From Raja brachyura (lineage: Eukaryota), in assembly GCA_963514005.1 (NCBI GenBank), contig OY740805.1, forward strand, positions 24,118,001-24,182,000: DNA of 64,000 bases, in the 5' to 3' direction. The stretch's first letter is position 1, and each line of letters starts with the position of its first letter. Under the pieces are notes generated by a model, which worked only from the letters and a program-made list of their open reading frames with translations, searched no databases and was not told the origin of the DNA. Below are positions 3,140-27,690 of this stretch, in pieces. The translations under genes and the position numbers were made by a program.

Positions 3140-3540
3140 CCTGACCCGGCTGTCCCTCGTCATCCAGCGCTGCCACCATCTCCCGCAGCCCACCGCCTCC
3201 CACCACCTCCACCGCCCAGAACCCCACCCCCGTCCTCCCCAACTACGTCCACTCAATGTCCGCCTCCAGCTTCTGCTAGAGCTGGGCTAGCAGCCTGGCG
3301 ACGGGGAGAGCGGCACTGCTCAGCGGCCAGCCGGATCCGTAGACCGCGGCCCCGACAGCCAGGAGGAGGTAGGGCCCGGCGGGAGGCCGGCCAAAGCAGG
3401 TTCAACAGACCCTCCGAGAGACCCTGCGGGCCGCCGGCGAGTCGCCCAGCGCGAACGGGCGCACGGCGATGGTCCAGGAAGCCGCTGGAAGATGGGTGCG
3501 CTTCGGCCTGAGGAAGGGGGCGCAGAGGAGAGGGGACTCC
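3140..3540 (-). pseudogene. NAT8-like relic, N-terminal/central part (copy 3), with deletions and no ATG
   Basis: DNA collinear with ~220-720 (cccagaacccc, ctcaatgtccgcctccagc, gggctagcag, gaccctccgaga, cggcgagtcgcc, gaacgggcgcacgg, atggtccagg). Confidence 0.8.
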
Positions 3541-3859
3541 GACGCTGTGAAATCTGTACCTTATTTGGCTTCTCTGTGTTGCCTGTACCTGTCTGGCTTG
3601 TTTGTGTTGCGTGTTGCCTCACAGACTTGGAATGGATGGAGGGGAGAGGGGAGTGGCTGGAGGGAGTGTGCGATGGAGCAGGGACGGTGCTGGGGGTGTG
3701 TCGACCTATGGGTTCCTCCCATCTCCGCACATGAATACAATCATGAAGGATATGTGCTCCAGTTGCAAAGAAAGTGCAGGTAAAATAAATAATGTAAGGG
3801 CAGGGATGAGGTAGATTGACAGATTGGGAATACATTCTTATGGATCTTCACCACACTGA

Positions 3860-4132
3860 ATCCACGCCGACCATTGGTCACCCGTTCAATGCCTGTCCCG
3901 CTGAGTTCTATGTTATTCAATTTTCACATCCACTCCTACACACCAGGGCCAATTTACCTACAAACTCTTATGTCTTTGGGATGTGCGAGGAAACCAGACC
4001 CTCCGGAGAAAACCCATTTGGCCACAGGGAAAACGTGAAAACTCCACACTGACTGCTCCTAAGGTCGGGATAGAACCTGTTTCTATGCCGCTGTGCTTAA
4101 GCAGCACCATCAGCTGTGCCACTGTGCCACCA
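3860..4132 (-). mobile_element. tRNA-derived V-SINE, degenerate
   Basis: Reverse strand ggtggcacagtggcacagctg... head and V-domain-like core. Confidence 0.65.
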
Positions 4133-5411
4133 GCATTCTATGTGGTAATTGAAACTTTGAACGGATATTTAAACATTTCCTTGGATCGGATTTCGAGAGA
4201 TATGGGTCAAATGCAGGTAAATGGGTCTTGCCCAGAGGACAGCATGTAGAAAGGAACTGCAGATGCTCATTTACACCGAAGATAGCCACAAAACGCTGGG
4301 ATATCTCAGCGGTACAGGTTGCATTTCTGGAGAAAAACGTTTGAGGGTCAAGATCCTTCTTCAGACATGACAGCGGATATTATTGACCCGAAATGTCACT
4401 CATTCTTGCTTTTCAGAGATGCTGCATGTCCCGTTGAGTTACTCCAGCATTTTGGGTCTTTCATCAGCCCGAATGGCAACTTGGTCGGCATGGACAAGGT
4501 GGGTCGAAACATTTAAATCCATTCTGTATGGCTCCATGACTCAGACTGTAGCCCAGCCTATGGAGAGGTAATATGTTCCCTGGCACAATGCTGCTGCACT
4601 CCAACTTTGCTTGGAAGACAAAAGAAGGAGATAGACAGCGAAAATAAACTGTAGTAACTCAGCGGGACAATGCAGCATGTCTGGAGAGAAGGAATGGGCG
4701 ACGTTTCGGGTCGAGACCCTTCTCAGACCAGACAGGGGAAAGTGAAACGAGAGATATACCTGATGATGTTGAGAGACAAAGTACGATGAAATAAATAAAT
4801 GCAAAAATGTAACATTGATAAAGGAAACAGGCCCTTGTTAGCTGTTTGTTGGGAGAAAACAAGAAGCTGATGTGACTTGGGAGGGGGAGGGATGGAGAGG
4901 GAGGGAATGCCAGGGTTACTTGACGTTACTTTGCAGACCCGAAACGTCACCCATACATTCTCTCCATAGATGCTGTCTGTCCCGGTGAGTTACTCCAGAT
5001 TTTGGTGTCCATCTTCAGTTTAAACCAACATCGGCAGTTCCTTCCTACTCAATATTCATACCGCTGGGCTGCGGTCATTGGAATGCTGATGTAGAATCTA
5101 ACCAAGTGCTCTTCCTCTCTTCTTGATAAACTTAACAGTGCTAACAGCTGATAATAAATATTTATTTCCTTCATTCCCTCATTCTCCGAATAGTCAAGCG
5201 ATAGCCATTCAGCACGGAAACAGGCCCCTTGCCCCAACTTGCCTATGTCGACCAAGATGCCTGTTCTCACTAGTCTCAGCTGCCTGCATTTGACCCATAT
5301 CCCTCTCCATCTTTCCTAACCATGCACCCCTCTCAATGTGTTTTTAATGTGTTAATTCTGGTTGCGTCAGCTCCCTCCCTTTATACTCCTGACAGATTTG
5401 TTTGTATCTTC

Positions 5412-6100
5412 TGTAATTGAAGAGCTAATAAAGAACACACCAACTAAAGGCCCAACAAGTTTATTAGCATATAGTAAAGTTACACTACAAGTAGTCACCA
5501 CCGTGACTACATCCCGACTAACGACTAGTGGCTAAAAACATTAGTAGCATATGGTGACTGTAAGGTAAGACCCGGACTGGATTGTGGATCCGGGAGGTGT
5601 ATAACATATGTGTGTTAATATTTGAGTGGTAGCTTGCCAAGCTTATCGTCAAAAAGTTCCTTATACTGAGCGAGAATTTGTTCAGTGGATTCTTGGGTGG
5701 GGGAAAGTTGGTGCACTTCTTCTGCAATGATTATCGATCCCGTGTCCCGGCAGGCATCAATCCCAAGTAGAGTCCTTACCTTGCCTGAAACAAATAACAA
5801 AAATTGAGCTTGTGCACATGTGTCGCCAGGTGGCACTGAAGGACAACCCTGCCAACTGGGCGAACCTCTCCTCCCCCAAAAAGAATTAATGACGCTTTCG
5901 TGTTAACGACAGTTTCAGTGTTCTTGACCCTGGAAAACACAGCCAGAGACATAATATTACCACGAGTTCCTGTGTCGATCTTTGCTACAGCTGTGGTGTT
6001 GTTGATTTGGAATGTAACTTCTAGATCGCTTAGTTTACATATAATCTCGGATAGAGAATGTATTTTTAGGCTGGAAATGTCAGGATCCGACAAATTCTCA
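5412..6100 (-). mobile_element. Ty3/Gypsy-like LTR retrotransposon relic: aspartic protease/linker plus a putative LTR
   Basis: VTFQINNTTAVAKIDTG...LFGGGEVRPVGRVVLQC and LLGIDAC...QILAQYKELFDDKLGKLP; adjoining 195-bp TG...CA segment (5606-5412) contains AATAAA. Confidence 0.65.
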
Positions 6101-7225
6101 CAAGGAACGACATGGCTTGAGCTGGATTGGACAGGCCGTGGGAAATATCTTGCTGGGTCTGATTTACCTGCTGTCTGGGTTCTGAGCAGATCTACAGTAA
6201 TGACCGACACAAATCAGTTATGTAATTCCCCTGCCTTGTCATTATACCAATATTGATTTATCTAACTTCAAGTAAACCTTGCATCCCCTCTTTCTCCGTC
6301 ACTCCACCTCCCAAGTCGTACCAGCTTCAAAGTCGTCTTGTTGAGTCTCATTGTCTGTAACTTATTTTCACCCAGCACAGCTAACAATGGCCTGTTCCCC
6401 TTTCCATCATTACTTTTCTGCATATCTTCCATTCATTTGTTCTATATCTCACTACATCGCCATCTAGATATCTCATTCCCCCTTCCCCTGACCCTCAGTC
6501 TGAAGAAGGGACTCGACCCGAAATACCACTTATTCCTTTTCTCCAGAGATGCTATCTGACCTGCTGAGCTAGTCCAGCTTTTTTGGTCTTTCCCCCAGTA
6601 TACATTTGCCTGCCTCTATTTATGAGACGCACATTGACCTTCAGCCACCTTTCTCCTTTACATAATTTCATGTTTTTCTCACTGGTTACGTGAGACACAG
6701 ATTCTATTACAATGCATATTCAAGGCACGAATCATATTACATAGAAACAATGAACTGCAGATGTCGATTTGCATAAAAGTGCTGGAGTAACCCAGCTGTT
6801 CAGACAGCATCTCTGGAGAACATAAATAGTTGACGTTTTGAGGTGGGACCCTTCTTCAGACTCCTCACAAAATAAGTCATAAAGGGCTGGAGTAACTCAG
6901 GCAGTATCTCTGGAGGACATAAATAAGTGACATTTTGTGTTGGGACCCTGCTTCAGACTAATTATGGGGGAGGGGGGCGGGAAACCAGGGAAGAAAGCTA
7001 GAAGAGTGGAGTAGCTGGATAAAGCTTGACATCCCCTGTTTAAATGTAACTACGTCACTTTCAAACACAATGTAAAACCCCATCACATAACGAGCACTCT
7101 TCCCCATAGGCCCACTTTACAGAAAGATTATCAAGTAAACCCTTTTTATTTCAGAAACAAGGTCTAAAATTATAATTTCTCTGGTGTTTGTCTTCCAGTT
7201 GATCCATATACATTGGACAAGTATG

Positions 7226-8733: not shown

Positions 8734-9231
8734 TTGTCCCTTCACTGCTAATTCAGTCAACGTGCAGTTTAAGTTTTTGCCATGTACATGACTATGTAAC
8801 TCCTGTTTACACCATTTTTTTGAAACTATTCATGTCCATTGTTACAAATACAATTCGGATCATATAAATAAATCCTACCAACATTAAATCCAACCAACGT
8901 CTCTATTGTTAACTTGGAACATGACCACCGGATGGCGCCAGCAATGGCTGCCTTGCCAAGTCTGTCTGTCCCATTCTTCTAAGTTGTTTCAATAGTATGT
9001 GTTAAATGTATGCTTTTAGTGTTCTTTAGTTTGTTTTATGTGGGGGGTTGGGGGTTGGGCGAAACTTTTTTTAATCTCTTACCTCAATGGAGATGCAATC
9101 TTTTTCTGTATCATATCTCCGTCCGTGCTGTGGCCTAACATCGAGGAGTTGGTGGCCTTTGCTGGAGACCGAATTTGCAAGCTCCAGCCGTGGGAGTATG
9201 TGGACATATCATCGCCATTTCCCTACCATTT

Positions 9232-10545
9232 CATTTCCCTACAATTCCTTGACCTCACCATCTCTATTGCAGGTGATACACTCCTGACCGACATCCACTA
9301 CAAACCAACTGACTCCCACAGCTACCTGGACTACTCTTCCTCCCACCCTGCTTCCTGTAAGGACTCCATCCCCTATTCCCAATTCCTCCGTCTATGCCGC
9401 ATCTGCTCCCAGGATGAGGTGTTCCACACCAGGTCATCACAAATGTCCTTGTTCTTCAGTGAACGGGGATTCCCCTCCCCCACTATAGATGAGGCTCGTA
9501 CCAAGGTCTCCTCCATACCCCACAACACTGCCTTCTCTCCCCATTCCCCCACTCGCAACAAGGGCAGAGTCCCCCTGGTCCTCACCTTTCACCCCACCAG
9601 CTGGCACATACAACACATAGTCCTCCGCCAGTTTCGCCACCTCCAACTTGACCCCACCACTTGCCACATCTTCCCATCTCCCCCCTGTCTGCCTTCTGCA
9701 AAGACCGCTCCCTCCGCAACTCCCTTGTCAATTCTTCCCTTCCCTCCCGCTCCACCCCTTTCCCGGGCACTTTCCCTTGCAACCGCAAGAGATGCTACAC
9801 TTGTCCCTCCACCTCCCCCCTCCACTCCTTTCAGGGACCCAAGCAGTCCTTCCAGGTCTGACAGAGGTTCACCTGCGCCTCCTCCAACCACATCTTCTGC
9901 ATCCGTTGCTCCAGATGCCAGCTGATCTATATCGGTGAGACCAAGCGGAGGCTTGGCGATCGTTTCTCCGAACACCTCCGCTCGGTCCACAATAACCAAC
10001 CCGACCTCCCGGTGGCTCAGCACCTCAACTCCCCCTCCCATTCCGTATCCGACCTCTCAGTCCTGGGCCTCCTCCATGGCCAGAGTGAGCAACACCGCAA
10101 GTTGGAGGAACAGCACCTCATATTCCGCTTGGGGAGTCTGCATCCTCTGGGCTTAAACATTGAATTTTCTAAATTCTGCTAACCCTTGCTGCCTCCTCCC
10201 CTTCCCACCTCTCCCTCAGCCCTCGGGCCCTGGCATTCCCTCTCTCTCTATCTCCCCCACACCCAAGTCGCACTTGCTTCTCATTTTCACACAACAAACA
10301 GCTTACAATGGCCTGTTTCCTTTATCATCTATACTTTTTTGCATATCTTTCATTCATTGTTCTTTATCTCTCCACATCACCATCTATATCTCTCGTTTCC
10401 CTGATCCCTAACCAGTCTGAAGAAGGGTCTCGACCCAAAACATTGCCTATCTCCTTCGCTCCTTAGATGCTGCTGCACCCGCTGAGTTTCTCCAGCCTAT
10501 TGTGTACCCTCGATTCTCCAGCATCTGCAGTTCCTTCTTTAACAC
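9232..10545 (+). mobile_element. Penelope-like retroelement, 3' part (RT thumb + GIY-YIG endonuclease) followed by pLTR with a hammerhead-like motif
   Basis: FLDLTISI..TDIHYKPTDSHSYLDYSSSHP..IPYSQFLRL; FTCASSNHIFCIRCSRCQLIYIGETKRRLGDRFSEH; CTGAAGAAGGGTCTCGACCC at ~10417. Confidence 0.9.
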
Positions 10546-10936
10546 AACACATTATCGCGATCCCATTGCCAGGGATTGACCTCAGAACTCCAATTGCAGG
10601 AGCCTGCAGACTTTAACACTGTGGTGCTCGGGGTCCCTGGTTAGAGACCGACTTCGGGAGCTCCAAGCCGCAAAAGCTTCGACCACCCAACGTGGGAGCT
10701 TCGATCGCCCCAACCGCGAGAGAATAAAGAGGAAGAAGATTGGACTTTATTGCCTTCCATCACAGTGAGGAATGTGCGGAATCCGCTGTGGTGGATGTTT
10801 ATGTAAACTCTGATGTAGTTGTGTGTTTTGTTGGTTTTTTTGTATGGCTGTATAGTAATGTGCATATTACTGTACCTTAATCGGTACACGTGACAATAAA
10901 TGACCTTTGAAACATTTGAAGCACTGATTCGAACTG

Positions 10937-11508
10937 GGCGTGCATGGTGGCGCAGCTGCAGAGTTGCTGCCTTATGCCCCTGTCCCACTTCGGAAACCTG
11001 ACGGAAACCTCTGGAGAATTTGCGCCCCACCAGAGGTTTCCGTGCGGTTCCTGGAGGTTTTTATCAGTCTCCCTTAGGTCGAAAGTGGTTTCCGTTTTAA
11101 AAAACAGTCATTTTTTAGTCGAAGCCGGTTGCGATGCTCGTTGAAGGTGGTTGCCAGAGGACAAAAACCTCCGGGAACCGCACGGAAACCTTGGGTGGGG
11201 CGCAAAGTCTCCAGAGGTTTCTGTTCAGGTTTCCTAATTGGGACAGGGGCATTACAGTGCCAGTGACCCGGGTTCGATCCTGATTACTATGGAGCTTGTA
11301 TGTTCTCCCCGTGACCTGCGTGGGTTTTCTCCGGTATCTCCAGTTTCCTCCCACATGCCAAAGACGAATGAGTTTGTAGGTTAATTAGCTTGGTAAAATT
11401 GTAAATTGTCCCCAGTGTGTGTAGGGTAGTGTTAATGTGCGGATGTTGCTGGTCAGTGCAGACTCGGTGTGCCAAAGGTCCTGTTTCTCTAAATGAAACT
11501 AAACTAAA
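10937..11508 (+). mobile_element. V-SINE hosting the MITE
   Basis: tRNA A/B boxes, V-domain tgttctccccgtgacctgcgtgggttttctccgg, (aaact)n tail. Confidence 0.85.
10975..11251. mobile_element. PIF/Harbinger-like MITE with ~85-bp imperfect terminal inverted repeats and TTA TSD, inserted in a V-SINE
   Basis: TTA(10972-4)-TGCCCCTGTCCCA...TGGGACAGGGGCA-TTA(11252-4); flanks rejoin as the SINE sequence gttgctgccTTAcagtgccag. Confidence 0.85.
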
Positions 11509-11509
11509 C

Positions 11510-12445
11510 AACGCCTTCCGCAGAGACCATTCCCTCTGCAACTCCCTGGTTAACCCATCCCCTCCCATCCAAACCACCCCCTTCCCAGGTACCTTCTCCT
11601 ACAACTGCAGAAGATGCAACACCTGCCCCTATACCTCCTCCCTCGACTCTATCCAGGGACCCCGACAGTCCTTTCATATTCGGCAGAGGTTCACTTGTCC
11701 CCCCTCCAACCTCATCTACTGTATCCAATGTTCAAGATGTGGACTCCCAAATCAGCGAGTCTAAACATAGACTGGGCTAGCGTTTCACTGAACACCTTTG
11801 TTCAGTCCGCCTGAGTCTACCTGATCTCCAGCTTGCTAAACACTTTAATTCTCCTTCCCATTCCCACATTGACCTTTTTGTCCTAGGTCCACTCCATTGT
11901 CAGAGTGTGGCTAAATGCAAATTGTAGGAACAGCATCTCATATTTCACTTGGGCAACTTACAGCCCAGTGGTATGACTATCGATTTCTCTAACTTCATGT
12001 AACCCTGGCATTCCCTCTCTCTCTATCCCTCCCCCACCAAAGTCACACCAGCTTCTCTTTTTCACCCAACAAACAGCTAACAATGGCCTGTTTCCTTTAT
12101 CATCATCACTTTTTTGCATGCTTTCATTCATTGTTCTTTATCTCTACATCATCGTTAATATCTCTAGTTTCCTTATCCCTAACTAGTCTGAAGTGCCTCC
12201 CGCTGAGTTACTCCAGCTTTTTGTGTTTATCTTTGGTTTTAACCAGCATCTGCAGTTCCTTCATACCCATTTAAAGTAAACTAAACTAAACACTATGTTA
12301 TGATATCCCTGACCAGTCTGAAGAAGGGTCTCGACCCGAAACGTCGCCTATCTCCTTCGTTCCTTAGATGCTGCTGCACCCGCTGAGTTTCTGCAGCTTT
12401 TTGTGTAACCCTCGATTCTCCAGCATCTGCAGTTCCTTCTTTATG
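11510..12445 (+). mobile_element. Penelope-like GIY-YIG fragment and pLTR copies with hammerhead-like motif
   Basis: AFRRDHSLCNSLV...FPGTF..CRRCNTCP..QRFTC..NLIYCIQCSRC; intact CTGAAGAAGGGTCTCGACCCGAAACGTC at 12318-12345. Confidence 0.8.
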
Positions 12446-12814
12446 TTATGATCTATGATCCGATCATTTCTCACCATTTTACTGATGTCCTCCTTTTTAA
12501 TATTGTTGCACCACCTCCCCATTCGTCCCACCTCTTCTTCCTCTCGGTCCAACATCCTTACGAATACAGACATAAGTTCCGTACTGGTTTGAGATCATAC
12601 CCATTTTATGTTTTGCTATTAATTTGCTCACTTAGTTAAGCATTTAGTTAAGAGTCAAGAGACACAAGTGCCTAATTGTCATATGTAGAGAAATGGAACA
12701 AAGATATTCTCACTTGCAGCAGCAGAACAGGTCTGTGAAAATGGCACTCAATAGGTAATGTAATAAAAACAAACACAAAAAGGAAGCTGAGTAGATTTAA
12801 AAAAATATTAGTGT

Positions 12815-13405
12815 CAATAGACAATAGGTGCAGGAGTAGGCTATTAGGCCCTTCGAGTCAGCACCGCCATTCAATATGATCATGGCTGATCATCTCCAAT
12901 CAGTACCCCGTTCCTGCCATCTCCCCATATCCCCTGACTACGCTATTTTTAAGAGCCCTCTCTAGCTCTCTCTTGAAAGCATCCAGAGAATCTGCCCCCA
13001 CCGCCCTCTGAGGCAGAGAATTCCACACACCCACCACTCTCTGTGAGAAAAAGTGTTTCCTCGTCTCCGTTCTAAATGGCTTACTCCTTATTCTTAAACT
13101 GTGGCCCCTGGTTCTGGTCTCCCCCAACATCGGGAACATGTTTCCTGCCTCTAGTGTGTCCAAGCCCTTAACAATCTTATATGTTTCAATGAGATTCCCT
13201 CTCATCCTTCTAAACTCCAGAGTGTACGAGCCCAGCTGCTCCATTATCTCACGAGCCCAGCTGCTCCATTATATGACAGTCCCGCCATCCCGCGAATTAA
13301 CCTTGTAAACCTACGCTGCACTCCCTCAATAGCAAGAATGTCCTTCCTCAAATTAGGGGACCAAAACTGCACACAATACTCCAGGTGTGGCCTGACTAGG
13401 GCTCT
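12815..13405 (-). mobile_element. CR1 LINE 3' fragment
   Basis: MEQLGSYTLEFRRMRGNLIETYKIV...GTGY; (TATTGTC)n-type tail. Confidence 0.9.
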
Positions 13406-13469
13406 GTGCAAACAAAACAGAAACCCAAAGTCCCTGATTCAAACAAAGCCAAAGCCAAAGGAGCCAAAG

Positions 13470-14353
13470 GACATTTATTGTCACATACACCAATTGGTGT
13501 AGTGAAATTTGACTTGCCATGCAGCACACAGATAAAGATAAGACCCAACACTAAAGAATTAACAATGAACATAAAAACACTCCAGGTGTGGCCTCACCAA
13601 AACCCAATGGTTCCCACTGTGGCCTCACCAAAACACAATGGTTCCCACTGTGGGGGAAGGCACAAAGTCCAGTTCCATCCCCAAGTCCACCCATAGTCGG
13701 GCCTATTGAGGCCTCCGCAGTCGGCGCTACGGTGGCCCGATGTTTTAAGCCTTCTTGCCGGGTGTTGGTGTTCCGGCGTCGGGAGAGTCCTCATAGCGGC
13801 TTTGGACCCTTGGAACGGCCGCTTCCCTACCAGAGTCCGTGGCTTCCGAAGCCGACAAGGCCGCGCTGGATGGAGCTCCACAACTGGTGATCTGACCGAG
13901 AGATCCCAGGCTCCCGATGTTAAAGTTCAGCGCTGCCGCCCGCAGCCGGCCGCCCCACAGGCCCACAGCTCTGCGATGTTCACCTGCGGTCTCAGCATTC
14001 TGCAGCTCCAACGCGGCGACCCAGGCAAGGTATCGCCCGCTCTGCTCCCCGATGCTGCTCCAGCGCTGAGCCGCTGCCGAAGCCGAGGTTCTGGGCGGCC
14101 CCCTCAGGAAACGCCGCTCCAGGCCCGCTGGTAGGCCGCGAGGACGGGTCGAAGTTACAGCCCGGAGAAAAGCCGCCTCTCCGACCAGGTAGGGACCCTG
14201 AAAAGTAGTTTCCCCCTCCCCCCCCCCCCCACCCCCCACATAAAAATGACTACAACTCCAAAACAAAACACTAAAACTCACTAAGAATAAAAGAAAGAAG
14301 TTAAAAAACAGACAGCTGCAGGCTGGGCAGCCATACCAACTGGATGGCACCCC
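13470..14353 (-). mobile_element. GC-rich non-autonomous LINE-derived element (L2/Rex-type TGACAATAAA tail)
   Basis: Shares its 5' T-rich/G-run region and 3' ...gacttt..ccttcc..cacagtg...tgacaataaa end with 15568-16396; no coding similarity recognised. Confidence 0.55.
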
Positions 14354-15567
14354 CTTTAAACAAGACAGATCGTAGTTCTAAGTGTAGTTGGCAGTGTTCA
14401 ATAGCCTGATGGTGTTGGGAAGAAGCTGTACGTGAACCTGGAGGTCATGGTTTTAAGACTCCTTCACCTTCTCACCAAGGGAAGGAGTGAAATGAGAGCA
14501 TGGCCAGGGTGCCTTTTAGTAGCAGCACCTACCTACCATTGGTTTCCCTCGATGGTGGGGAGGTCAGTACCTGTGATGGAGTGGGCAGTGTCTCCTTTGT
14601 TCCTGGGCTGAGGATGCTGCCCTTGCAGACAGTGAGGAAGCGTGTCCACACATACTGTGGGATATAGATCCACCACATGAGAATTGGCGGGTGGGGTTTA
14701 ATCCGGGCAAGTGTGAGGTGTTGACCTTTGGGAGGTCGAATACCCCAGAATCTATTGCAATAAATCAGTGCCACCCCAAGTTAGCTGAGTTCAACATGTG
14801 CATCCAGACCATCGGGTTCTAAAGCGAAAATGTCTTTCTTTAATGGCCCACCCACAATGTAAGAGTCCCTTGGCACCAAACTTAAGGGTCACCCAAGAAT
14901 CCAATCTCAGGTGGCTATTCAGGGAATGGAGGATGTGGATCACGTGAAGACAGAATAGATTAGTTTAATCTGGTTTGGTACAGACATTCCTGTCATACGG
15001 TCATAAGGAATAGTAGAATTAGGCCATTCTGTCCAACAAGTTTACTCCGCCATTCAATCATGGCTGATCTATCCCTCCCTCTTAACCCCCTTCTCCCCAT
15101 GACCTCTGACACCTGTACTAATCAGGAATCTATCTATATCAGCCTTAACAATATCCACTGCCTTGGCCTCTACAGCCTTCTGTGGTATAGAATTTCACAA
15201 ATTCACTACCCTTTGATGAATGAAGTACTGTTCTTTGCTCAATGTATGTGCCTGGCCTGCTCAGTCACACATGTATAAAACCATTAGTCAGTGTGGGAAC
15301 GGTGAAGTAATGGGAGCTTAATGCCAACAGGCGGCAGCCAGCACACTGCCCCAACACAATCACAGATAGAACAGGCAGTGACAAACATCACTTGTGGAAT
15401 TTTAGAAATGGCACTGCAGTAGATTTGCTGCCTTACAGCACAAGAGGCATGGGTTCAATCCTGACTACGAGTGCTGTCTGTACGGAGTTTGTACGTTCTG
15501 CCTGTGAGCACGTGGATTTTCTCCGGTTCTCTGGTTTCCCCCCACACTCCAAAGACGTAGATATTCG

Positions 15568-16396
15568 GTGGGCGGCGCGACTCTCGTCACAGCGGCCTCT
15601 GCAGTCCGTCTGTCTTTTTTTATTTTTTGTCTCGTTTGAGTGTAGTTAGTTAGTGGGTTTTTTTGCTGGATATGTGTGGGGGGTGGGGAAACTTTAAAAA
15701 AAATTTTCACTGTACGGAGGACCCGACCTTTTCTCTGTCGGGTCTCCGTTATCGTTGGGGCCTAGAACCATGGAGCGGCCTCCAACCGGACCTGGGGCTC
15801 CAGTCGCGGAGCTGCGGACTTACTTACCATCGTGGGGCCGGCCGAGTTCGGAACGGGAGGAGCTGTGGTAGTGCGCTGCTGCTGCCCGACCCCGGAGATT
15901 CGGAGGCTTCCGCTGCAGGCCGGTGGACGGTAACACCGGGAGCTCGCGGGTCTCTGGTGGGAGACCGCATTTTGGAGCTCCCGCGGTGGCAACTTCTCCC
16001 GCCGGAGTTGCGGGGTTGAAGACGACCTGGAGCGGGGCCTTACATCGCCCGGCGCGGTTTTGATGGCCACGGGACTTGCTAGGGCCCGCCGGGGGCTCCA
16101 ACATCAAGACCCGGACTGGGGCCTTGCATCGCCCCGCGCGACATGAATGGCCGCGGGACTTATATACCATCGCCCGCCGGGGGCTTTGACTCTGACATCG
16201 GGAGGAGAATGGGGAGTGCAAGGGAGAGATAAGACTTTGCCTTCCATCACAGTGAGGAGGATATTCACTGTGATGGGTGTTTGTGTAAATTGTGTTGTGT
16301 CCTGGTTCTTTTCTTGTATGTATGACTGCAGAAACAAAATTTTGTTTGAACCTCAATGAGGTTCAAGTGACAATAAATGGTATTGTATAGTATTGT
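15568..16396 (+). mobile_element. GC-rich non-autonomous LINE-derived element inserted in a V-SINE
   Basis: Ends gtgacaataaatgg(tattg)n; SINE 5' half at ~15405-15560 and 3' half at ~16404-16525. Confidence 0.6.
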
Positions 16397-16689
16397 ATTT
16401 CTCAGATAATTGGCTTGGTATAATTGTAAAATTGTCCCTAGTGTGTGTAGGTTCTTGTACGGGGTGTTTGCTGGTCGGGGTGGACTCGATGGGATGAAGG
16501 GCCTGTTTTCCCGTTGTATTTCCAGATTGCAGGCACCCATCCTGCGTCGCTATGTTGTATAGCAGAAGCACAAACACAGTACTCTGCTTATCCACAAACT
16601 TGTTAGATGTTCACGTATATTCCTTAACACTGTGGATGCCCAATGCGGAGACTCATTGGTGTAATGTTGCCAAATTCCTCCTACCACCC

Positions 16690-16778
16690 CGTGCACCTCC
16701 CATAGTGAAGTACTGATCCCAACACATCTCTCTATCCCACTCCCATCCCATCACATAATACTGATCCCAAACACATCC
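16690..16778 (+). repeat. Degenerate ~45-bp minisatellite (continues at 22091-22270)
   Basis: Recurring ccatcacatagtactgatcccaaacacatcc-like units on both sides of the SINE/CR1 insertions. Confidence 0.6.
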
Positions 16779-17087
16779 GGGTGGCAAGGAGGCACAGCGG
16801 TAGAGTTGCTGCCTTACAGCGTCGGAGACCCCAGTGCGATCCTGACTATGGGTGCTGTCTGTGTGGAGTTTGTACGTTCTGACCCGTGTGGGTTTCCTCC
16901 GAGATCTTCGGTTTGTTCCCACACTCCAAAGATGTACAGGTTTGCAGGTTAATTGGCTTGAGATAATTGTAAATTGTCCCTAGTGTGTGTAGGGTAGTGT
17001 TAATGTGCTGTGATCGCTGGTCAGTGCAGACTCAGTGGGCCGAAGGGCCTGTTTCCGCACTGTACCTCTAAACTAAATTAAAACGAA
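16779..17087 (+). mobile_element. V-SINE, full length, ACATCC TSD
   Basis: tRNA head, V-domain, aaact tail; ACATCC at 16773-16778 and 17088-17093. Confidence 0.85.
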
Positions 17088-17100
17088 ACATCCCTCTATC

Positions 17101-20100
17101 GGGGCAGATGAGAAAGTGTGAGGCTTGCAGAATGTGGGAGCCCAGGGACACAGATGGAGCCTCTGGCTGCTACAACTGTGGCATGACTAGTGGGGTGCCG
17201 CAAGGCTCAGTGCTGGGACCCCAGCTATTTACAATATATATTAATGATTTGGACGAGGGAATTCAATGCAACATCTCCAAATTTGCAGATGATACCAAGC
17301 TGGGGGGTATAGTTAGGTGTGAGGAGGATGCTTGGAGGCTGCAGGGTGATTTGGATAGGCTGAGTGAATGGGCAGATGCATGGCAGATGCAGTACAATGT
17401 GGATAAATGTGAGGTTATCCACTTTGGTGGCAAAAACATGAGGGTAGACTATTATCTGAATGGTGGCAGATTAGGTAAGGGGGAGATGCAACGAGACCTG
17501 GGTGTCATGGTACACCAGTCATTGAAAGTAGGCATGCAGGTGCAGCAGGCAGTGAAGAAAGCAAATGGTATGTTAGCATTCATAGCGAAAGGATTTGAGT
17601 ATAGGAGCAGGGAGGTTCTACTGCAGTTGTACAGGGTTTTGGTGAGGCCACACCTGGAGTACTGCGTACAGTTTTGGTCTCCAAATCTGAGGAAAGACAT
17701 CCTTGCCATAGAGGGGGTACAGAGAAGATTCACCAGACTGATTCCTGGGATGTCAGGACTTTCATATGAGGAAAGATTGGATAGACTCGGTTTGTACTCG
17801 ATGGAATTTAGAAGATTGAGGGGGGATCTTATAGAAACCTACAAAATTCTTAAGGGGTTGGACAAGCTATATGCTGGAAGATTGTTCCCGATGTTGGGGG
17901 AGTCCAGAACAAGGGGTCACAGTCTAAGGATAAGGGGGAATTCCTTTAGGACCGAAATGAGGAAAACATTCTTTACACAGAGAGTGGTGAGTCTCTGGAA
18001 TTCTCTGCCACAGAAGGTAGTTGAGGCCAGTTCATTGGCTATATTTAAGAGGGCGTTAGATGTGGCACTTGTGGCTAAAGGGATAAGGGGGTATGGAGAG
18101 AAGGCAGGTACGGGATACTGAGTTGGATGATCAGCCATGATCACATTGAATGGCGGTGCAGGCTCGAAGGGCCGAATGGCCTACTCCTGCACCTATTTTC
18201 TATGTTTCTATGTCTATGTGCGTCCAGCTTCAGCTCCTAAAGGACCATGTTAGGGCACTGGAGAAGCAGCTGGATGACCTCAGGGCCATCTGGGGAAATG
18301 AGAGTTTCCTGGACAGGACCTACAGTGATGTTGTCACGCCGAGGTTACTGGAAGAACCAAGGTGTGTGACGGAGAGAAAGGGTGGTAATCGTGGAGTGCA
18401 GGAGACCCAGGTGGCTGTGCCTAATGTAAACAGGTACGCCCTCTTGGGAACTGTTCGGGGAGACGATGTTTCCAGTCCAAGCGGTGGACACGTCGGTGGC
18501 TCCAATCCTGGAGATGGGACTCGACCGGAGAGACCGACGTCGGGCAGAGCCCTAGTGTTGGGTGACTCCATTGTCCGAGGAGTGGAAAGGAGATTCTGTT
18601 ACGGCAGACGAGATGCGAGGATTCCCTCCCTGGTGCCAGGGTTCAGGATGTCACAAGCCGAATTATTAACATCCTCGAGAGAGAGGGTAAACAGCCAGCA
18701 GTAGTTGTGCACGTAGGCACAAACAACATCGGGAAGAAGAGGAACGAGGTTCTCCAACATTACTTCAGAGAGTTGGGAAGAAGACTGTAATGCTGGACTT
18801 CTAGGGTGGTTATCTCTGGATTGCTTCCAGTACCACGTGCTAGTGAGGACAGGAACAGGGAGAGAGGGAATCTGAATGAGGGGCTGAGGGGCTGGTGCAG
18901 GGAGCAAGGATTTAGATTTATAGACCACTGGGATCTCTTCTGGGGCAGGTGACCTGTACAAAAGGGACGGGTTACACCTTAACTGGAGGGGGACCGACAT
19001 TCTGGCAGGCAGGTTTGCTAGGTGCTGCACGTGTGGGTTTAAACTAAATAGTGGGGGGGAGGGATTGACAAATTGGGAGTATAAAGATGGAGTTGAAGGG
19101 GAAGTGGCTACAGGAAAAATTACAAAAGATGCTCAAATTAATGGGAAGGAAAGCTTGAGAATGGACAACAGAGTAAGGTCAGGGGCAATTGCGAGCGGTG
19201 CGAGGGGGGAAGTGAATACGGAGGACAAAGTGCTGTATATGAATGCGCAAAGTATAAGGAATAAAGTGGACAAGCCTGAGGCTCAGTTAGAAACGGGCAA
19301 GTATGATGTTGTGGGAATTACTGAAACATGGCTGCAAGTGGGCCGGGGCTGGGAACTGAATATTCAAGGGCATACCTCCTATCGAAAAGACAGACAGGTG
19401 GGCAGAGAGGGTGGGGAGGAATGTCGGTGAGGAATTAAATTCAGTCCCTTGCAAGGGGTGACATTGAAACAGGAGATGTGGAGTCAGTATGGACAGAACT
19501 AAGGAATTGTGAGGGTAAAAAGACCCTACAGGCCCCCAAACAGTAGCCTGGACATAGGGCGCAAGTTGAATCAGGAGTTAAAATTGGCATGTAGTAAAAG
19601 TAATGCTGTGATTGTTATGGGAGATTTCAGCATGCAGGTAGACTGGGAAAATCAGGTTGGTTCTGGACCCCAAGAAAGGGACTTTGTAGAGTGCCTTCGT
19701 GATGGATCTTTGAACAGCTTGTATAGGAGCCTACCAGGGAGAAGTTAATTCTGGATTTAGTGTTATGTAATGAACCGGATTTGATAAAGGACCTCGAGGT
19801 TAATGAGCCATTAGGAGGCAGTGACCATAACATGGTCAGGTTTAATCTAAAATTGGAGAGGGAGCAGAGTAGATCGGAGGTGTCATGTTGCAGTTGAATA
19901 AAGGGGACTATGGAGCCATGAGGGAGGAGCTGGCCAAAGTTGACTGGAAGATACACTGGCAGGGATGACAGTGGAACAAAAATGGCAGGTGTTTGTAGGA
20001 ATGATACAGAAGCTGCGGGATCAGTTCATTCCTAGGAGGAAGAAAGATTCCAAGGGGAGAAAGGGACGACCATGGCTGACAAGCGACGTCAGGGACAGTA

Positions 20101-22085
20101 CAAAAATTAAAGCAAAGAAGTACAATGTAGTAAAGATGATCAGGAAGCAAGAGGATTGGGTAATGTTTAAAGAACAACAGAAGATAACCAAAAAGACAAT
20201 ACGGGGAGAAAAGATGAGGTACGAAGGTAAGCTAGCCAAGAATATACAGCAGGATAGTAAAAGCTTCTTTGGGTATATGAAGAGGAAAAAATTAGTTAAG
20301 ACGAAAGTTGGACCCTTGAAGACCGAAAAAGGTGAATTTATTATGGGGAACAAGGAAATGGCAGATGAGTTGAACAGGTACTTTGGATCTGTCTTCACTA
20401 AGGAGGACACAAACAATCTTCCTGATATCGTAGAGGCCAGAGGATCTGTGGTGACAGAGGAACTGAAGGAAATCCACATTAGGCAGGAAATGATGTTGGG
20501 TAGACCGATGGGACTCAAGGCTGATAAATCCCAAGGGCCTGATGGTCTGCATCCCAGGGTACTTAAGGAAGTGGCTCTAGAAAACGTGGATGGATTGGCG
20601 ATAATTTTCCAATGTTCTATAGACTCTGGATCAGTTCCCGTGGATTGGAGGGTAGCTAATGTTATCCCACTTTTTAAGAATGGCGGGAGAGAGTAAACGG
20701 GGAATTATAGACCAGTTAGCCTGACATCGGTGGTGGGGAAGATGCTGGAGTCAATTATAAAAGATGAGAGAGCCGCACATTTGGATAGCGGTAACAGGAT
20801 CGGTCCGAGTCAGCATGGATTTACGAAGGGGAAATCATGCTTGACTAATCTTCTGGAATTTTCTGAAGATGTAACTACGAAAATGGACAAGGGAGAGCCA
20901 GTGGATGTAGTGTACCTGGACTTTCAGAAAGCATTTGATAAGGTCCCACATAGAAGATTAGTGGGCAAAATTGGGCCACATGGTATTAGTGGTAGAGTGC
21001 TGACATGGATAGAGAAGTGGTTGGCAGACAGAAAACAAATAGTAGGGATTAACGGGTCCCTTTCAGAATGGCAAACAGTGACTAGTGGGGTACCGCAAGG
21101 CTCGGTGCGGGGACCGCAGCTATTTACATTATGCATCAATGATTTGGATGAAGGGATTCAAATAAACATTAGCAAATTTGCAGATGATACAAAGCTGGCA
21201 GTGTGAACTGTGGGAGGATGCTATGAGAATGCAGGGTGACTTGGACAGGTTGGGGGAGTGGGCAGATGCATGGCAGATTAAGTTTAATGCGGATAAATGT
21301 GAGGTTATCCACTTTGGTAGCAAAAACAGGAAGGCAGATTACTATCTAAATGGTGTCAAGTTGGGAAAAGGGGAAGTACAATGGGATATGGGGGTCTTTG
21401 TACTTCAGTCTATGAAAGTAAGCATGCAGCTACAGCAGGCAGTGAACAAAGCGAATGGCATGTTGGCCTTTATAATAAGGGGAATCGAATATAGGAGCAA
21501 AGAGGTCCTTCTGCAGTTGTACAGACCTAGTGAGACCACACCTGGAGTATGTACGTGCAGTTTTGGTCCCCTATTTTGAGGAAGGACATTGAGGGAGTGC
21601 AATTTAGGTTTACAAGGTTAATTCCTGGGATGGCAGGATTGTCATATACTGAGAGAATGGAGCAGCTGGGCTTATACACTCTGGAGTATAACAGGATGAG
21701 AGGAGATCTCATTGAAACATATAAGATTGTTAAGGGCTTGGACACTCTAGAGCCCGGAAACATGTTCCTGATTTGGGGGAGTCCAGAACCAGGGGCCACA
21801 GTTTAAATATAAGGAGTAAGCCATTTAGAACGGAGACGAGGAAACACTTTATCTCACAGAGAGTGGGGAGTCTGTGGAATTCTCTGCCTCAGAGGACGGT
21901 GGAGGCAGGTTCTCTGGATGCTTTCAAGAGAGAGCTAGATAGGGCTCTTAAAAATAGCGGAGTCAGGGGGTATGGGTAGAAGGCAGGAACAGGGTACTGA
22001 TTGGGGATGATCAGCCATGATCACATTGAATGGTGGTGCTGGCTCGAAGGGCCAAATGGCCTACTCCTGCACCTATTGTCTATTG
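17101..22085 (+). mobile_element. Near full-length decayed CR1 LINE (ORF1 Zn-finger/leucine zipper/SGNH esterase; ORF2 APE endonuclease + RT)
   Basis: CEAC...CGMC, LKDHVRALEKQLDDLRAI, ALVLGDSIVRGV; LYMNAQSIRNK..YDVVGITETWL; [33 protein letters not shown]; (TATTGTC)n tail; TCTATC TSD at 17095-17100 and 22086-22091; many stops and frameshifts. Confidence 0.92.
17186..18218 (+). mobile_element. Younger 5'-truncated CR1 nested in ORF1 of the long CR1
   Basis: Uninterrupted RT C-terminal frame [12 protein letters not shown]...KFADDTKL...GTGY*; (TTCTATGT)n tail; host ORF1 resumes at 18219. Confidence 0.9.
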
Positions 22086-22284
22086 TCTATCCCACTCCCC
22101 TCTCATCACATAGTAATGATCCCAAACACATCCTTCCATCCTGCTCCCCTCTCATCACACAGTGCTGATCACAAATCACGCTGTGCACCTCTCCTGCCAC
22201 CGTATAGTATGAACCCAAACATACTGCACTGTCCCATTCCCCACCCATTGCATAGTGTTGATCCCAAGCTCTGCCAGCCTGCAA

Positions 22285-23182
22285 GTTGGCTGGCTGGCAG
22301 AAGACAAAGAGTGGCAATAAAGGAGGCTTTTTCTGGTTGGCTGCCAGTCACTAGTGCAGTTCCGCAAGGGTCGGTGCTGGGGCTGCTACTCTTCACGTTG
22401 TATATTAATGATTTGGACGAGGGGAATGAAGGCTTTGTCGCAAAGTTTGCGAATTATATGAAAATAGGTGGAGGGGCAGGTAGTGTCGAGAAAGCAAGGA
22501 CTCTGCAGAAGGACTTGGACAGGTTTGGAGAGTGGGCAGGGAAGTGGCAGATGGAATTTAGTGTGGAGTCATGCATTTTGGTAGTCGGAATAAAAGCATA
22601 GACTGTTTTCTAAATTCGCAAAAGGTTAATCTGCCAGTCCATATCAGTAGCAAAGAAAGTAGGGACTTGCATACAAAAATAGGGAAGTAATTTTAGGAAG
22701 GAAATGAGGGGAAATTTCTTCTTAGACTAAATTGGCATGATGACCGCCCCATGATGAGCTATTGCCGGCACTGGGCCTGTACTTGCTGGCATTTAGTAGA
22801 ATGAGGGGGGACCTCATTAAAACATACAGAATAGTGAAAGGCTTGGATAGAGAGGATGTGGAGAGGACGTTTCCATTAGTGGGAGAGCCGAGGGCTAGAG
22901 GTCATAGCCTCCAAATTAAAGGACTTCTTTTAGGAAGGAGATGAGGAGAACTTTTTTTAGTTAGAGGGTGAATCTGTGGAATTATTTGCCACAGAAAGCT
23001 GTCGAGGTCGTCAGTGGGTATTTGTAAGGCAGAGATAGGTAGATTCTTGATTCGTACAGGCTGTGGAGAGAAGGCAGGAGAATGGGGTTAGGAGGGAGAT
23101 ATAGATCAGCCATGATTGAATGACAGAGAAGACATGATGGGCTGAATGGCCTATTTCTACTACTATTCCTCATGACCTTATG
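22285..23182 (+). mobile_element. Older CR1 fragments
   Basis: [25 protein letters not shown]; ...RMRGDLIKTYRIVKGLDR; CR1 3'UTR. Confidence 0.75.
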
Positions 23183-23244
23183 ATCCCACTGCCTTGCTCT
23201 CCCCCTCTATCTCCATAATTACAAAACTCTAATCTTGGCTGTGG

Positions 23245-23245
<1 letters not shown>

Positions 23246-23280
<35 letters not shown>
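23246..23280 (+). repeat. (GT)n microsatellite
   Basis: Direct reading. Confidence 0.95.
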
Positions 23281-23282
<2 letters not shown>

Positions 23283-23799
23283 TTATTTGTTTGTGTGTTG
23301 TCACATCTTCTCAAAAAAACGACGCGCTAACGCCGTGCTCTGTTATTAAAGAAAACCCAGCAAAGGGAGACATTACCTGCTGTGGCCTCACAATTCCAGT
23401 GAGCTGTTCGATCCTGACCTCAAGTGCTGTCTGTGTGGAGTTTACACGTTCTCCCTGTGACCGTGTGGGTTTCCTCAAGGAGGCGAGATATCCTGCAATG
23501 GCCAAAGAGACATCTGGGTTTGTAGGTTAACGAGCCCTCTGTAAATTAGCCCCGAGTATGTGGGAGTGAATGAGACAATGGGATAACATAGAACTGGTAT
23601 GAATGGGTGATCAACGGTCCACGTGGAATCATAGCTGGGCTGAAGGACCTGTTTCCATGCTGTTTTCAATCAATTAACCAATCCCAGTGACTTGGATCTA
23701 AGAATCATGGAGAAATGAACAGGCCCTTCTGCCCAACTCATCCATGCTGACCAAAATGGTCCATCCCATTAGTCCCATTTGCCCATGTTTGGCCCATAT

Positions 23800-24322
23800 G
23801 GTCTCCTAATTTGAGGAAGGATATCCTTGTGATTAAGGCAGTGCAGCGTAGGCTCACAAGATTGATCCCTGGGATGGTGGGACTGTCATATGAGAAAAGA
23901 TTGAAAAGACTAGGCTTGTATTCACTGGAGTTTACAAGGATGAGGGGGTTATTTTCTAGAAACAGATAAAATTATAAAAGGACTGGACAAGCTAGATGCA
24001 GGAAAAATGTTCCCAATGTTGGGCGAGTCCAGGGACCACAGTCTTAGAATAAAGGGGAGGCCATTTAAGACTGAGGTGAGAAAACACTTTTTCACCCAGA
24101 GAGTTCTGAATTTGTGGAATTCCCTGCCACAGAGGGCAGTGGAGGCCAAATCACTGGATGGATTTAAGAGCGAGTTAGATAGAGCTCTAGGGGATATGGG
24201 GAGAAGGCAGGCACGGGTTGTTGATTGTGGACGGTCAGCCATGATCACAATGAATGGCGGTGCTGGCTCAAAGGGCCGAATGGCCTCATCCTGCACCTAT
24301 TTTCTATGTTTCTATGTTTCTA
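23800..24322 (+). mobile_element. CR1 3' fragment
   Basis: MFPMLGESR..FKTEVRKHFFTQRVLNLWNSLP; (TTCTATGT)n tail. Confidence 0.88.
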
Positions 24323-24566
24323 TATCCCACAGAAGCTTTCCTATCTATGTACCTATCCAAATGTATTTTTAAATGTTATTATAGTACCTGTATCAATTAC
24401 CTCGAGGCAGCTCGTTCTATATACCCACCACACTCTATGCGTGAAGGTTGCCCCTCAGGTTCCCAGTTGATATTACCTTAAACCTGTGTCCTCAGGTTTT
24501 TTATTCCTCAATCTGGGTAAAAGACTCTGAGCATTCACCCTATCTATTCCCATCATTTGTTTTCCC

Positions 24567-24880
24567 TGAAAAAAGGACCTTTTATTCAATTAAACACAAA
24601 TATAGAGAATAAACAGAATCAATTCTGCCATTGGCAGTTTGCAAACAACTATCAAAACGCTATCAGATTAAAATGGTGTCAACATTATCTATGATACATT
24701 CGACCCCCTCCCCCCCCCTGCACGATGATCAGCGTTCACAGAAGGCCTCCAGATTCCTCATGGACATCGCGTGCTCCATCTGCACGCGGGCACTGACGTA
24801 GACCCGGAACAGGAGCAGGCAGTTGACTCGGGTAGAACCTCGACTGCCTGCTTCTATTCCTCATGGGAGCTGAAATGTGG
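24567..24880 (-). mobile_element. Tx1/L1-clade LINE 3' end fragment
   Basis: Minus strand FRVYVSARVQMEHAMSMRNLEAFCER resembles the Tx1 ORF2 C-terminus; AATAAA near the end. Confidence 0.55.
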
Positions 24881-24894
24881 GATTGAATATAGAG

Positions 24895-25230
24895 ACATTG
24901 AAACATAGAAAATAGGTGCAGGAGTAGGCCATTCAGCCCTTCTAGCCATTCAATATGATCGTGGCTGATCATCCAAAATCAGTATCCCGCTCCTGCTTTC
25001 TCCCCATATACCTTGATTCTGTTAGCCCTCAGAGTTATATTTAACTCTCTCTTGAAAACATCCAGTGAATTGGCCTCCACTGCCTATTGTGCCAGAGAAT
25101 TCCACAGATTCACAACTCTCAGGGTGAAAAAGGTTTTCCTCTTTTTAGCCCTATATCGCCTAACCCTTATTCTTAAACTGTAACCCCCTAGTTGTGGACT
25201 CCCCCAACTTCGGGAACATTTATCCTGCAT
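24895..25230 (-). mobile_element. CR1 3' fragment
   Basis: Reverse complement of the CR1 3'UTR and tail. Confidence 0.85.
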
Positions 25231-25311
25231 GTCCCTTCTAAGTCCCATTGAAATAATAGAGGAAACTCTTAGAGGTTGGCATGGTGGTGCAGCGGAAGAG
25301 TTGTTGCCTTA

Positions 25312-25801
25312 AGGGCCTGTCCCACCAGCATGCAACTCCATGCGATGAGCGCGACCTAACGTGGTCGCTTGAGCCATCCGGCGTCGCGGGGCCGGTCCCA
25401 CTTCGATCGCCGGAGCCGTGCGGAATTGTGCAGAGTTCGTCCCGACATCGCGCGGGGCTCCGAAAAACGGACTATGTTCAAAAATTCCGCGCGGCAACGG
25501 TTTGTCGGCTCGCAGTCGCCTCGACACTTTACACACCGCCCCGACATCTTCCCACCGTGAACCTATCTGTAGGTGTCTCCATGACCCTCTATGTGTGTGG
25601 CTCCGTGGCTCTGTGTGTGTGTGTGCCTCTGTGCCCCTCTCTGTGTGCCCCTCTCTGTCCTGGCGAACTTACCTTAAGACTTCGCTCCAAGTTCGCCTCA
25701 CTTTGCACTGCGTTGCGCCACTCACCCGACCTCCGCGCGGCCCCCGCTTCTAGTTTGATCGCGCTCATCGCATGGAGTCGGATGCTGGTAGGACAGGCCC
25801 T
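25312..25801. mobile_element. PIF/Harbinger-like MITE with TTA TSD, inserted in a V-SINE (~25276-26085)
   Basis: TTA(25309-11)-AGGGCCTGTCCCACCAGCATGC...GATGCTGGTAGGACAGGCCCT-TTA(25802-4); flanks rejoin as gttgttgccTTAcagctccag. Confidence 0.85.
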
Positions 25802-26169
25802 TTACAGCTCCAGATACCTGGGTTCGATCCTGACTATGGATGCTTGTCTGTACGGAATTTGTACATTCTCCCCATGACCTGCGTGGGTTTCCTCCGGGAT
25901 CTCCGGTTTCCTACCACACTCAAAAATAAAAACGTACAGGTTTGAGGGTTAATTGGCCTGGTATAAATGTAAATTGTCCCTTGTGTGTGTGTGTCAGATA
26001 CTGTTAGTGTGAGGGGATCACCGATCGGCATGGACTCGGTGGGCCAAAGCGCCTTTTTCAGTGCTGTATCCCTGAACTAAACTACAACAGGAGGAGGAGG
26101 GTAGGAGAGAAAAAGCAGCAGAAATGGGAAAGAGAGAGATGTGGCTGAAGAAGGGGAGTGTATTGAACA

Positions 26170-27385: not shown

Positions 27386-27690
27386 GGGCGGCACGGTGGC
27401 ACAGCGGTAGAGTTGCTGGGTTACAGCGCTTACAGCGCCAGAGCCCCGGGTTCAATCCCGACTACAGGTGCTGTCTGTACAGAGTTTGTACTTTCTCCGA
27501 CATCTTCTGTTTCCTCCCACAGTCCAAAGACGTACAGGTTTGCAGGTAGATTGCCTTGGTATAATTGTAAATTGTGCCTAGTGTGTGTAGGGTAGTGTTA
27601 ATGTGCGGGGATCGCTGGTCGGTGCAGACTTGGTGGGCCGAAGGGCCTGTTTCCATGTTGTATCTCAAAAAAAAAAACGAAACTAAACCA
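27386..27690 (+). mobile_element. V-SINE
   Basis: gggcggcacggtggcacagcggtagagttgc head; tail gggccgaagggcctgtttcc. Confidence 0.85.

What the first reader, a model, noticed from the sequence alone, without database searches (positions are those of the whole stretch)
10972..25804. Two different Harbinger-like MITEs inserted at the identical TTA in the tRNA head of two SINE copies
Seen: MITE A (10975-11251, 277 bp) and MITE B (25312-25801, 490 bp) differ internally but share related TIR starts (TGCCCCTGTCCCAC / AGGGCCTGTCCCAC). Both duplicate the TTA in SINE sequence GTTGYTGCC-TTA-CAG, between the A and B boxes. They are the only two such MITEs I found in 64 kb, and both hit the same nucleotide. 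Known: PIF/Harbinger elements make TWA/TTA TSDs and some have extended target preferences. Inference: a DNA-transposon family that targets an abundant SINE/tRNA-like motif as a safe haven.
Basis: partly seen in the sequence, partly recalled or inferred. Interest (0 to 1): 0.7.

Follow-up and report, generated by a model that had tools for sequence, protein, structure and literature searches.

The report
Ordinary MITEs sharing one SINE site
Two small cut-and-paste transposons did land at the same three letters in two copies of a common repeat, but the one family that could be tested sits mostly elsewhere in related genomes, so this looks like ordinary target-sequence preference plus luck, not a dedicated safe-haven system.

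Summary
MITE A (10975-11251) and MITE B (25312-25801) have related inverted ends, each duplicates TTA, and both sit at the same position of a tRNA-derived SINE head. They are independent insertions: different interiors, host SINEs 75% alike, unrelated flanks. Chance is 1.2e-5 for this site class and about 1e-3 for any shared repeat site. The safe-haven reading fails for MITE A. In contigs of four related organisms it has roughly 1,500-3,500 copies, and its ends run into heterogeneous DNA. Depth continuing into the SINE flank is 0.4-1.1%; simulation gives 14-16% for strict targeting and 4-7% for 25-30% targeting. So about 0-8% of copies sit at this site, against 0.4% for random TWA. The flanks show a weak extended preference (G-K-C-T outward from TWA), as known for PIF/Harbinger; the SINE site fits one half of it. 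Best reading: ordinary PHIS-type MITEs at an abundant, perhaps mildly favoured site.

The parts
10936..10971 (+). 5' part of tRNA-derived SINE head (host A), A-box-like motif from 10948
   Evidence: aligns with other SINE heads; box position
10972..10974 (+). left TTA target-site duplication of MITE A
10975..11251 (.). MITE A, 277 bp, non-coding, about 100-bp imperfect inverted arms; high-copy family
   Evidence: laid by 8,919-21,665 contigs per run in 4 of 4 runs
11252..11254 (+). right TTA duplication of MITE A
11255..11512 (+). rest of host SINE A, B-box-like motif 11272-11280, body and tail
   Evidence: BLAST to intact copy 76% over 245 nt
25274..25308 (+). 5' part of SINE head (host B), A-box-like motif from 25285
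25309..25311 (+). left TTA duplication of MITE B
25312..25801 (.). MITE B, 490 bp, 48-bp inverted arms, internal TIR-like word at 25389-25401, no protein-family hit
25802..25804 (+). right TTA duplication of MITE B
25805..26086 (+). rest of host SINE B, B-box-like motif from 25822, body and tail
   Evidence: BLAST to intact copy 74% over 287 nt
16811..16819 (+). empty paralogous target site GCC-TTA-CAG in an intact SINE (others at 15430 and, with one mismatch, 45768)

Best explanation
Two non-autonomous MITEs of the PIF/Harbinger-like (PHIS) kind were cut and pasted independently into two old copies of a tRNA-derived SINE. SHOWN: inverted ends, 3-bp TTA duplication, empty paralogous sites, independence. 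SHOWN for MITE A in related organisms: high copy number, mostly non-SINE flanks, and a weak preference for G-K-C-T just outside the TWA. INFERRED from the known family: a DDE transposase and a Myb/SANT partner, encoded elsewhere, bind the shared CCTGTCCCAC ends, make a staggered 3-bp cut at TWA and read a few flanking bases. INFERRED: the SINE site recurs at high density (6 TTA-type heads in 64 kb), lies in a GC-rich context and fits one half of the preferred site (outward TAA-GGCA; the other side reads TTA-CAG and does not fit). It is therefore a common, mildly favoured site that takes a few percent of insertions at most. A double hit is then a roughly 1-in-1000 event, noticed in a large scan.
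For: Loose ends at the right TIR end: 64 and 63 contigs on the TAA side, and 68, 80, 101 and 93 on the TTA side, with agreement of only 0.33-0.41. Random flanks give 0.38 and all-SINE flanks 0.79-0.86. Flank consensus is GTCT (2 of 2 listed TAA groups) and GGCT, GGCT, GGCT, GGAT (4 TTA groups); random window TWA sites give G at +1 with C at +3 in 0.03-0.08% of draws. Depth in the second SINE-flank bin is 0.68, 0.37, 0.90 and 1.06% of the last MITE bin. De Bruijn simulations give 0.03-0.9% at f=0, 0.4-1.8% at f=3%, 0.8-1.7% at f=6%, 1.2-1.4% at f=10%, 4.4-6.6% at f=25-30% and 14-16% at f=100%. None of the 15 listed long records that reach the right TIR end runs on through the SINE flank to the end of the stretch (table 8, a selected list). 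PIF/Harbinger elements have 9-15 bp target preferences (PMC2836001). Harbinger3_DR prefers AAACACCWGGTCTTT, whose right half also begins GTCT (PMC3016246).
Against: A toy weighting by the flank rule lifts this site class only from 0.38% to about 0.5% of the weight, so sequence preference as measured does not by itself give a several-fold enrichment. The depth data allow f=0 if empty SINE contigs leak into the flank bin. The test used related organisms (best share of words 0.41), contigs rather than reads, MITE A only, and my own stand-in for the tool's aligner. The bin just at the junction is 21-29% in the data and 18-22% in low-f simulations, which I did not explain. No transposase was found.
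Confidence: 0.55

Rival explanations
1. Pure coincidence: the MITEs insert at TWA with no net enrichment for the SINE site, and a double hit was picked out because half the window is repeats and many windows were read.
For: Two random TWA picks are homologous in some repeat with P = 0.6-1.0e-3, and up to 3.7e-3 with flank weighting. The depth ratios of X15 and X16 are about what leak of empty SINE contigs alone gives in simulation. The downstream half-site does not fit the flank consensus.
Against: For this specific site class P = 1.2e-5. X1 and X4 show more flank depth relative to their SINE depth than X15 and X16 (1.05 and 1.93% against 0.56 and 0.53%). X16 record 17 is one further SINE-MITE A junction, with 14 other letters and 2 gaps in 98; it may be an independent copy or an orthologue.
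Confidence: 0.27
2. True targeting: at least MITE B's family is steered to the anticodon-loop position of tRNA-like SINE heads, by a longer recognition sequence or by tethering to Pol III factors, and uses SINEs as a safe haven.
For: 2 of 2 such elements in the window, and 2 of 6 TTA-type heads occupied. Precedent for DNA transposons that target tRNA anticodon regions exists in Dada (PMC8869645). MITE B's flanks are untested.
Against: MITE A shares the terminal motif, and so probably a related transposase, yet is at this site in under about 10% of copies. Dada has no terminal inverted repeats and makes 6-7 bp duplications (PMC3706591). A 2.1-kb stretch with the same end motif at both sides on one metagenome contig shows no SINE head next to its ends, by eye.
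Confidence: 0.13
3. SINE+MITE composites amplified by retrotransposition or segmental duplication, so that the site looks like a hot spot.
For: MITE B has no run of 4 or more T on the SINE strand, so Pol III read-through is not excluded by terminators. A further junction exists in another organism.
Against: The two MITEs differ internally. Host SINEs are 74.6% alike, within the 70-84% range of all 15 pairs, and 500-bp flanks share no BLAST hit. MITE A has three T4-T6 runs on the SINE strand and stretches the A-to-B-box distance from 44 to about 324 bp. A composite could not explain two different MITEs at one site.
Confidence: 0.05

Closest known systems
PIF/Harbinger transposons and Tourist-like MITEs (PIF/mPIF, Ping/mPing, zebrafish Harbinger3_DR)
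   Same: 3-bp TWA duplication, terminal inverted repeats, short non-coding high-copy derivatives, extended target preference; the outward GTCT consensus resembles the right half of the Harbinger3_DR target.
   Different: No autonomous partner seen; MITE A's TIR starts with T, not the usual A or G; Harbinger3_DR duplicates CWG and not TWA; the preference here looks weak.
NuwaII group of the PHIS superfamily (target C|TNA|G)
   Same: G is the commonest base just outside TAA in MITE A's flanks, which means C-TWA-G.
   Different: Only TTA and TAA were seen as plurality; both window sites read C-TTA-C; cannot be told from PIF/Harbinger without a transposase.
Dada DNA transposons (target tRNA, U6, U1 and 5S genes)
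   Same: Insertion into a tRNA-like sequence between the Pol III boxes; several Dada families use the anticodon region.
   Different: Dada lacks terminal inverted repeats, makes 6-7 bp duplications and is strictly target-specific; MITE A has TIRs, a 3-bp duplication and mostly other targets.
HE1 V-SINE of sharks and rays (host repeat)
   Same: tRNA-derived head with A- and B-box motifs, about 300 bp, high copy. HE1 is listed as the shark and ray V-SINE (PMC4824008). The identification with HE1 is recalled, not aligned.
   Different: Not compared with an HE1 consensus, as no repeat library was available.

Membership tests
PIF/Harbinger (PHIS) MITE | TWA target-site duplication, confirmed by empty sites | tested here: met
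   TTA on both sides of both elements; empty sites at 15430, 16811, 45768; other MITE A ends stop at TTA or TAA
PIF/Harbinger (PHIS) MITE | terminal inverted repeats, short, non-coding, high copy | tested here: met
   roughly 2,900-7,000 ends per run for MITE A (rough); MITE B's copy number not tested
PIF/Harbinger (PHIS) MITE | first TIR base usually A or G | tested here: inconclusive
   B starts with A, A starts with T; the rule is 'usually'
PIF/Harbinger (PHIS) MITE | extended target preference of 9-15 bp | tested here: met
   G-K-C-T outward from TWA, P at most 0.0008 against random window sites; plurality consensus only, MITE A only, copies may be shared between organisms
PIF/Harbinger (PHIS) MITE | autonomous partner with DDE transposase and Myb/SANT ORF sharing the TIRs | not testable with these tools
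NuwaII (PHIS) | target C|TNA|G | tested here: inconclusive
   G is the plurality base outward of TAA; both window sites have C on the 3' side
Dada | no terminal inverted repeats, 6-7 bp TSD | tested here: not met
   TIRs and a 3-bp TSD
Target-specific (safe-haven) transposon | most copies at one site of a multicopy target | tested here: not met
   MITE A: about 0-8% of copies; MITE B not tested
HE1 / V-SINE (host) | tRNA head plus 80-bp V domain and LINE-like tail | not tested
   box motifs seen; no tRNA or Rfam hit in the window; family name recalled

The most novel reading that the evidence does not exclude
A PHIS transposon lineage, represented by MITE B, is strongly and specifically steered to the anticodon-loop TTA of tRNA-derived SINE heads (and perhaps of real tRNA genes), beyond what its flank preference predicts, for example by its Myb/SANT partner contacting Pol III factors bound at the A and B boxes. 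It would be a TIR transposon that parasitises and silences SINE promoters.
Probability: 0.12. Interest if true: 0.6.

Novelty: new member of a known kind. Interest (0 to 1): 0.2.

Why it matters
As it stands, little: nested insertion of TWA-targeting MITEs in a repeat-rich vertebrate genome is expected, and the flank consensus adds one more extended Harbinger-type target. It is a caution for presence/absence markers, since recurrent insertion at one SINE position creates homoplasy. If MITE B's family proved strictly targeted, it would add a TIR-bearing lineage to the few known target-specific DNA transposons (Dada, Pokey, CryptonV) and offer a transposase with a harmless multicopy landing site.

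Tried and rejected
No whole genome is held for this window, so the decisive census was not possible. MITE A's end motif gave 0 matches in viral contigs and 0 in metagenome contigs. A looser end motif gave 48 metagenome loci; none had an inverted partner within its own locus, and only L034 and L035, on one contig, form a pair. The other 46 were treated as chance. ARAGORN and Rfam found nothing in the window. Earlier-findings look-ups by sequence and by genome were empty. My first bound on the SINE share (f of 10% or more rejected because the loose-end consensus carries no SINE signal) was set aside: contigs with the upstream SINE flank are laid on the left junction and so drop out of that group. 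It is used only to show that many flanks are heterogeneous. The joint likelihood rests and is dropped too. A TTAA duplication (piggyBac or Kolobok type) was considered for MITE B and rejected, as the right side reads TTTA and the empty site has one TTA. The 9-bp duplication starting at the same TTA in the SINE at 27386 was considered as an excision footprint and left open; I recall it as a SINE subfamily trait. Runs other than the four laid were not used as evidence. Eight literature searches listed no paper on these elements or on Harbinger MITEs targeting SINE heads, judged from listings; Repbase and Dfam could not be searched, so the families may already be catalogued.
Full report
Context. 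The window is repeat-rich vertebrate DNA: about half is covered by internal repeats, with reverse-transcriptase fragments and a beta-2-microglobulin exon. The SINE and LINE look like those of sharks and rays; that label is recalled, and only shows that HE1 is the shark and ray V-SINE. No whole genome was held.

The observation. MITE A is 277 bp and folds back over about 100 bp. MITE B is 490 bp with 48-bp arms. They share only short terminal words. Taking out each MITE and one TTA restores the SINE head, in register with empty copies at 15430, 16811 and 45768. A scan for TWA-flanked inverted repeats found these two and one AT-rich pair that is at the level of shuffles. Of 19 heads aligned, 6 have TTA at this position and 2 of these are occupied. 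The site class holds 7 of 1859 TWA sites. The chance of both landing there is 1.2e-5, and the chance of two picks being homologous in any repeat is 0.6-1.0e-3.

Independence. The host SINEs are 74.6% alike, inside the 70-84% range of 15 pairs among six copies, and their outer flanks share nothing. With different interiors as well, these are two separate insertions. MITE A also puts three T4-T6 runs between the Pol III boxes, whereas MITE B has none on that strand.

The test of targeting. Twenty runs from seven coded organisms held 0.21-0.41 of the words around MITE A. I laid four of them, from four organisms, on MITE A with 33 and 20 bases of SINE flank. Between 8,919 and 21,665 contigs per run were laid. 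Peak depth divided by 31 and by single-contig depth, read by eye from table 8, suggests about 2,900-7,000 ends, or 1,500-3,500 copies; this is rough. At the right TIR end, groups of 63-101 contigs leave the stretch after TTA or after the T of TAA, into long flanks with agreement 0.33-0.41. Random flanks give 0.38 and SINE flanks 0.79-0.86. So MITE A is widespread outside SINEs. These groups cannot give the SINE share, because SINE-flanked contigs are placed on the junctions instead; I therefore set aside the bound. The direct measure is depth in the second flank bin, which is 0.68, 0.37, 0.90 and 1.06% of the last MITE bin. I simulated MITE ends, SINE-site copies and empty SINEs, built k=31 unitigs and laid them with blastn (14 settings, one run each). 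Strict targeting gave 14-16%, a share of 25-30% gave 4.4-6.6%, 10-12% gave 1.2-2.7%, 3-6% gave 0.4-1.8%, and 0% gave 0.03-0.9% depending on whether empty SINE contigs leak in. The data fit a share between 0 and about 8%, against 0.38% for random TWA choice. Limits: related organisms and not this genome, contigs and not reads, a stand-in aligner, and a junction bin that is higher in the data (21-29%) than in low-share simulations (18-22%). One contig of run X16 spans the left junction at single-copy depth with 14 other letters and 2 gaps in 98, so other SINE-site copies, or an orthologue, exist. MITE B was not tested, as only one laying was allowed.

Target preference. The loose-end consensus begins GTCT after TAA in both listed groups, and GGCT, GGCT, GGCT, GGAT after TTA (after TTA a first C cannot appear in these groups, since it matches the stretch). 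Random TWA sites from the window give G at +1 together with C at +3 in at most 0.08% of 4000 draws. This is the extended preference known for the superfamily: 9 bp in plants and 15 bp in vertebrates (PMC2836001, passages), with AAACACCWGGTCTTT for Harbinger3_DR (PMC3016246, passages) and C|TNA|G for NuwaII (PMC4482050, passages). The SINE site reads TAA-GGCA outward on one side, 3 of 4 fitting, and TTA-CAGY on the other, which does not fit. A toy weighting raises its share only to about 0.5%, so a several-fold enrichment, if it exists, is not yet explained by sequence alone.

Mechanism. Shown: TIRs, TWA duplication, independent insertion, and for MITE A high copy number, mixed flanks and a weak flank preference. 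Inferred from the family: mobilisation in trans by a DDE transposase and a Myb/SANT protein. No such gene was found among 196 of the 201 window ORFs of 85 aa or more; 5 low-complexity ORFs near 31.7-32.3 kb were left out. Inferred: the SINE site is common and perhaps mildly favoured, and the double hit is a rare event found in a large scan. I put 0.55 on this, 0.27 on no enrichment at all, 0.13 on real targeting by at least MITE B's family, and 0.05 on composite amplification.

Comparison. These work like Tourist-type MITEs of the PIF/Harbinger (PHIS) group and meet the DNA-level criteria; the defining transposase is missing, so PIF/Harbinger and NuwaII cannot be told apart. They are not Dada, which lacks TIRs, makes 6-7 bp duplications and is strictly specific (PMC3706591 and PMC8869645, passages). 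Eight searches listed no paper on these elements (listings only, no supplements read), but repeat libraries were not available.

Verdict. A real observation with an ordinary best explanation. The safe-haven claim fails for the family that could be tested and stays open for the other. Interest 0.2.

Noticed in passing
window 41690-41974 (+): Beta-2-microglobulin exon (Pfam C1-set; best PDB matches are beta-2-microglobulins, E 3e-28).
   Followed up: partly
window 3-623 (-): Open frame with a GNAT acetyltransferase domain (PF00583, E 3.6e-16), probably a host gene exon.
   Followed up: no
window about 18150-22000 (+): Long LINE copy broken into several frames, with an RVT_1 hit at 20697-21203; many 3' fragments of related LINEs occur through the window.
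   Followed up: no
window 9020-10179 (+): 301-aa frame followed by a weak GIY-YIG hit (E 5.7e-4, below cut-off); Penelope-like retroelement remnant by recall.
   Followed up: no
window 54276-54433: 158-bp stretch with a perfect 14-bp terminal inverted repeat and TTAA on both sides; either another MITE or a fold-back of LINE tails.
   Followed up: no
window 27400-27425: SINE head with a 9-bp tandem duplication that starts at the same TTA the MITEs use; the head at about 40190 has a similar extra 9 bp. Subfamily trait or footprint, not resolved.
   Followed up: partly
L034 184-202 and L035 901-919 (one metagenome contig): The same end motif as MITE A on both sides of about 2.1 kb in AT-rich DNA; TTA on the left and TAA on the right; no frame over 93 aa in the parts seen, 273 bp unseen.
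   Followed up: partly
window 11074-11166: Most laid contigs differ from MITE A in its middle, and run X4 has a different interior from X1, X15 and X16, so several subfamilies share the 100-bp arms (table 7).
   Followed up: no
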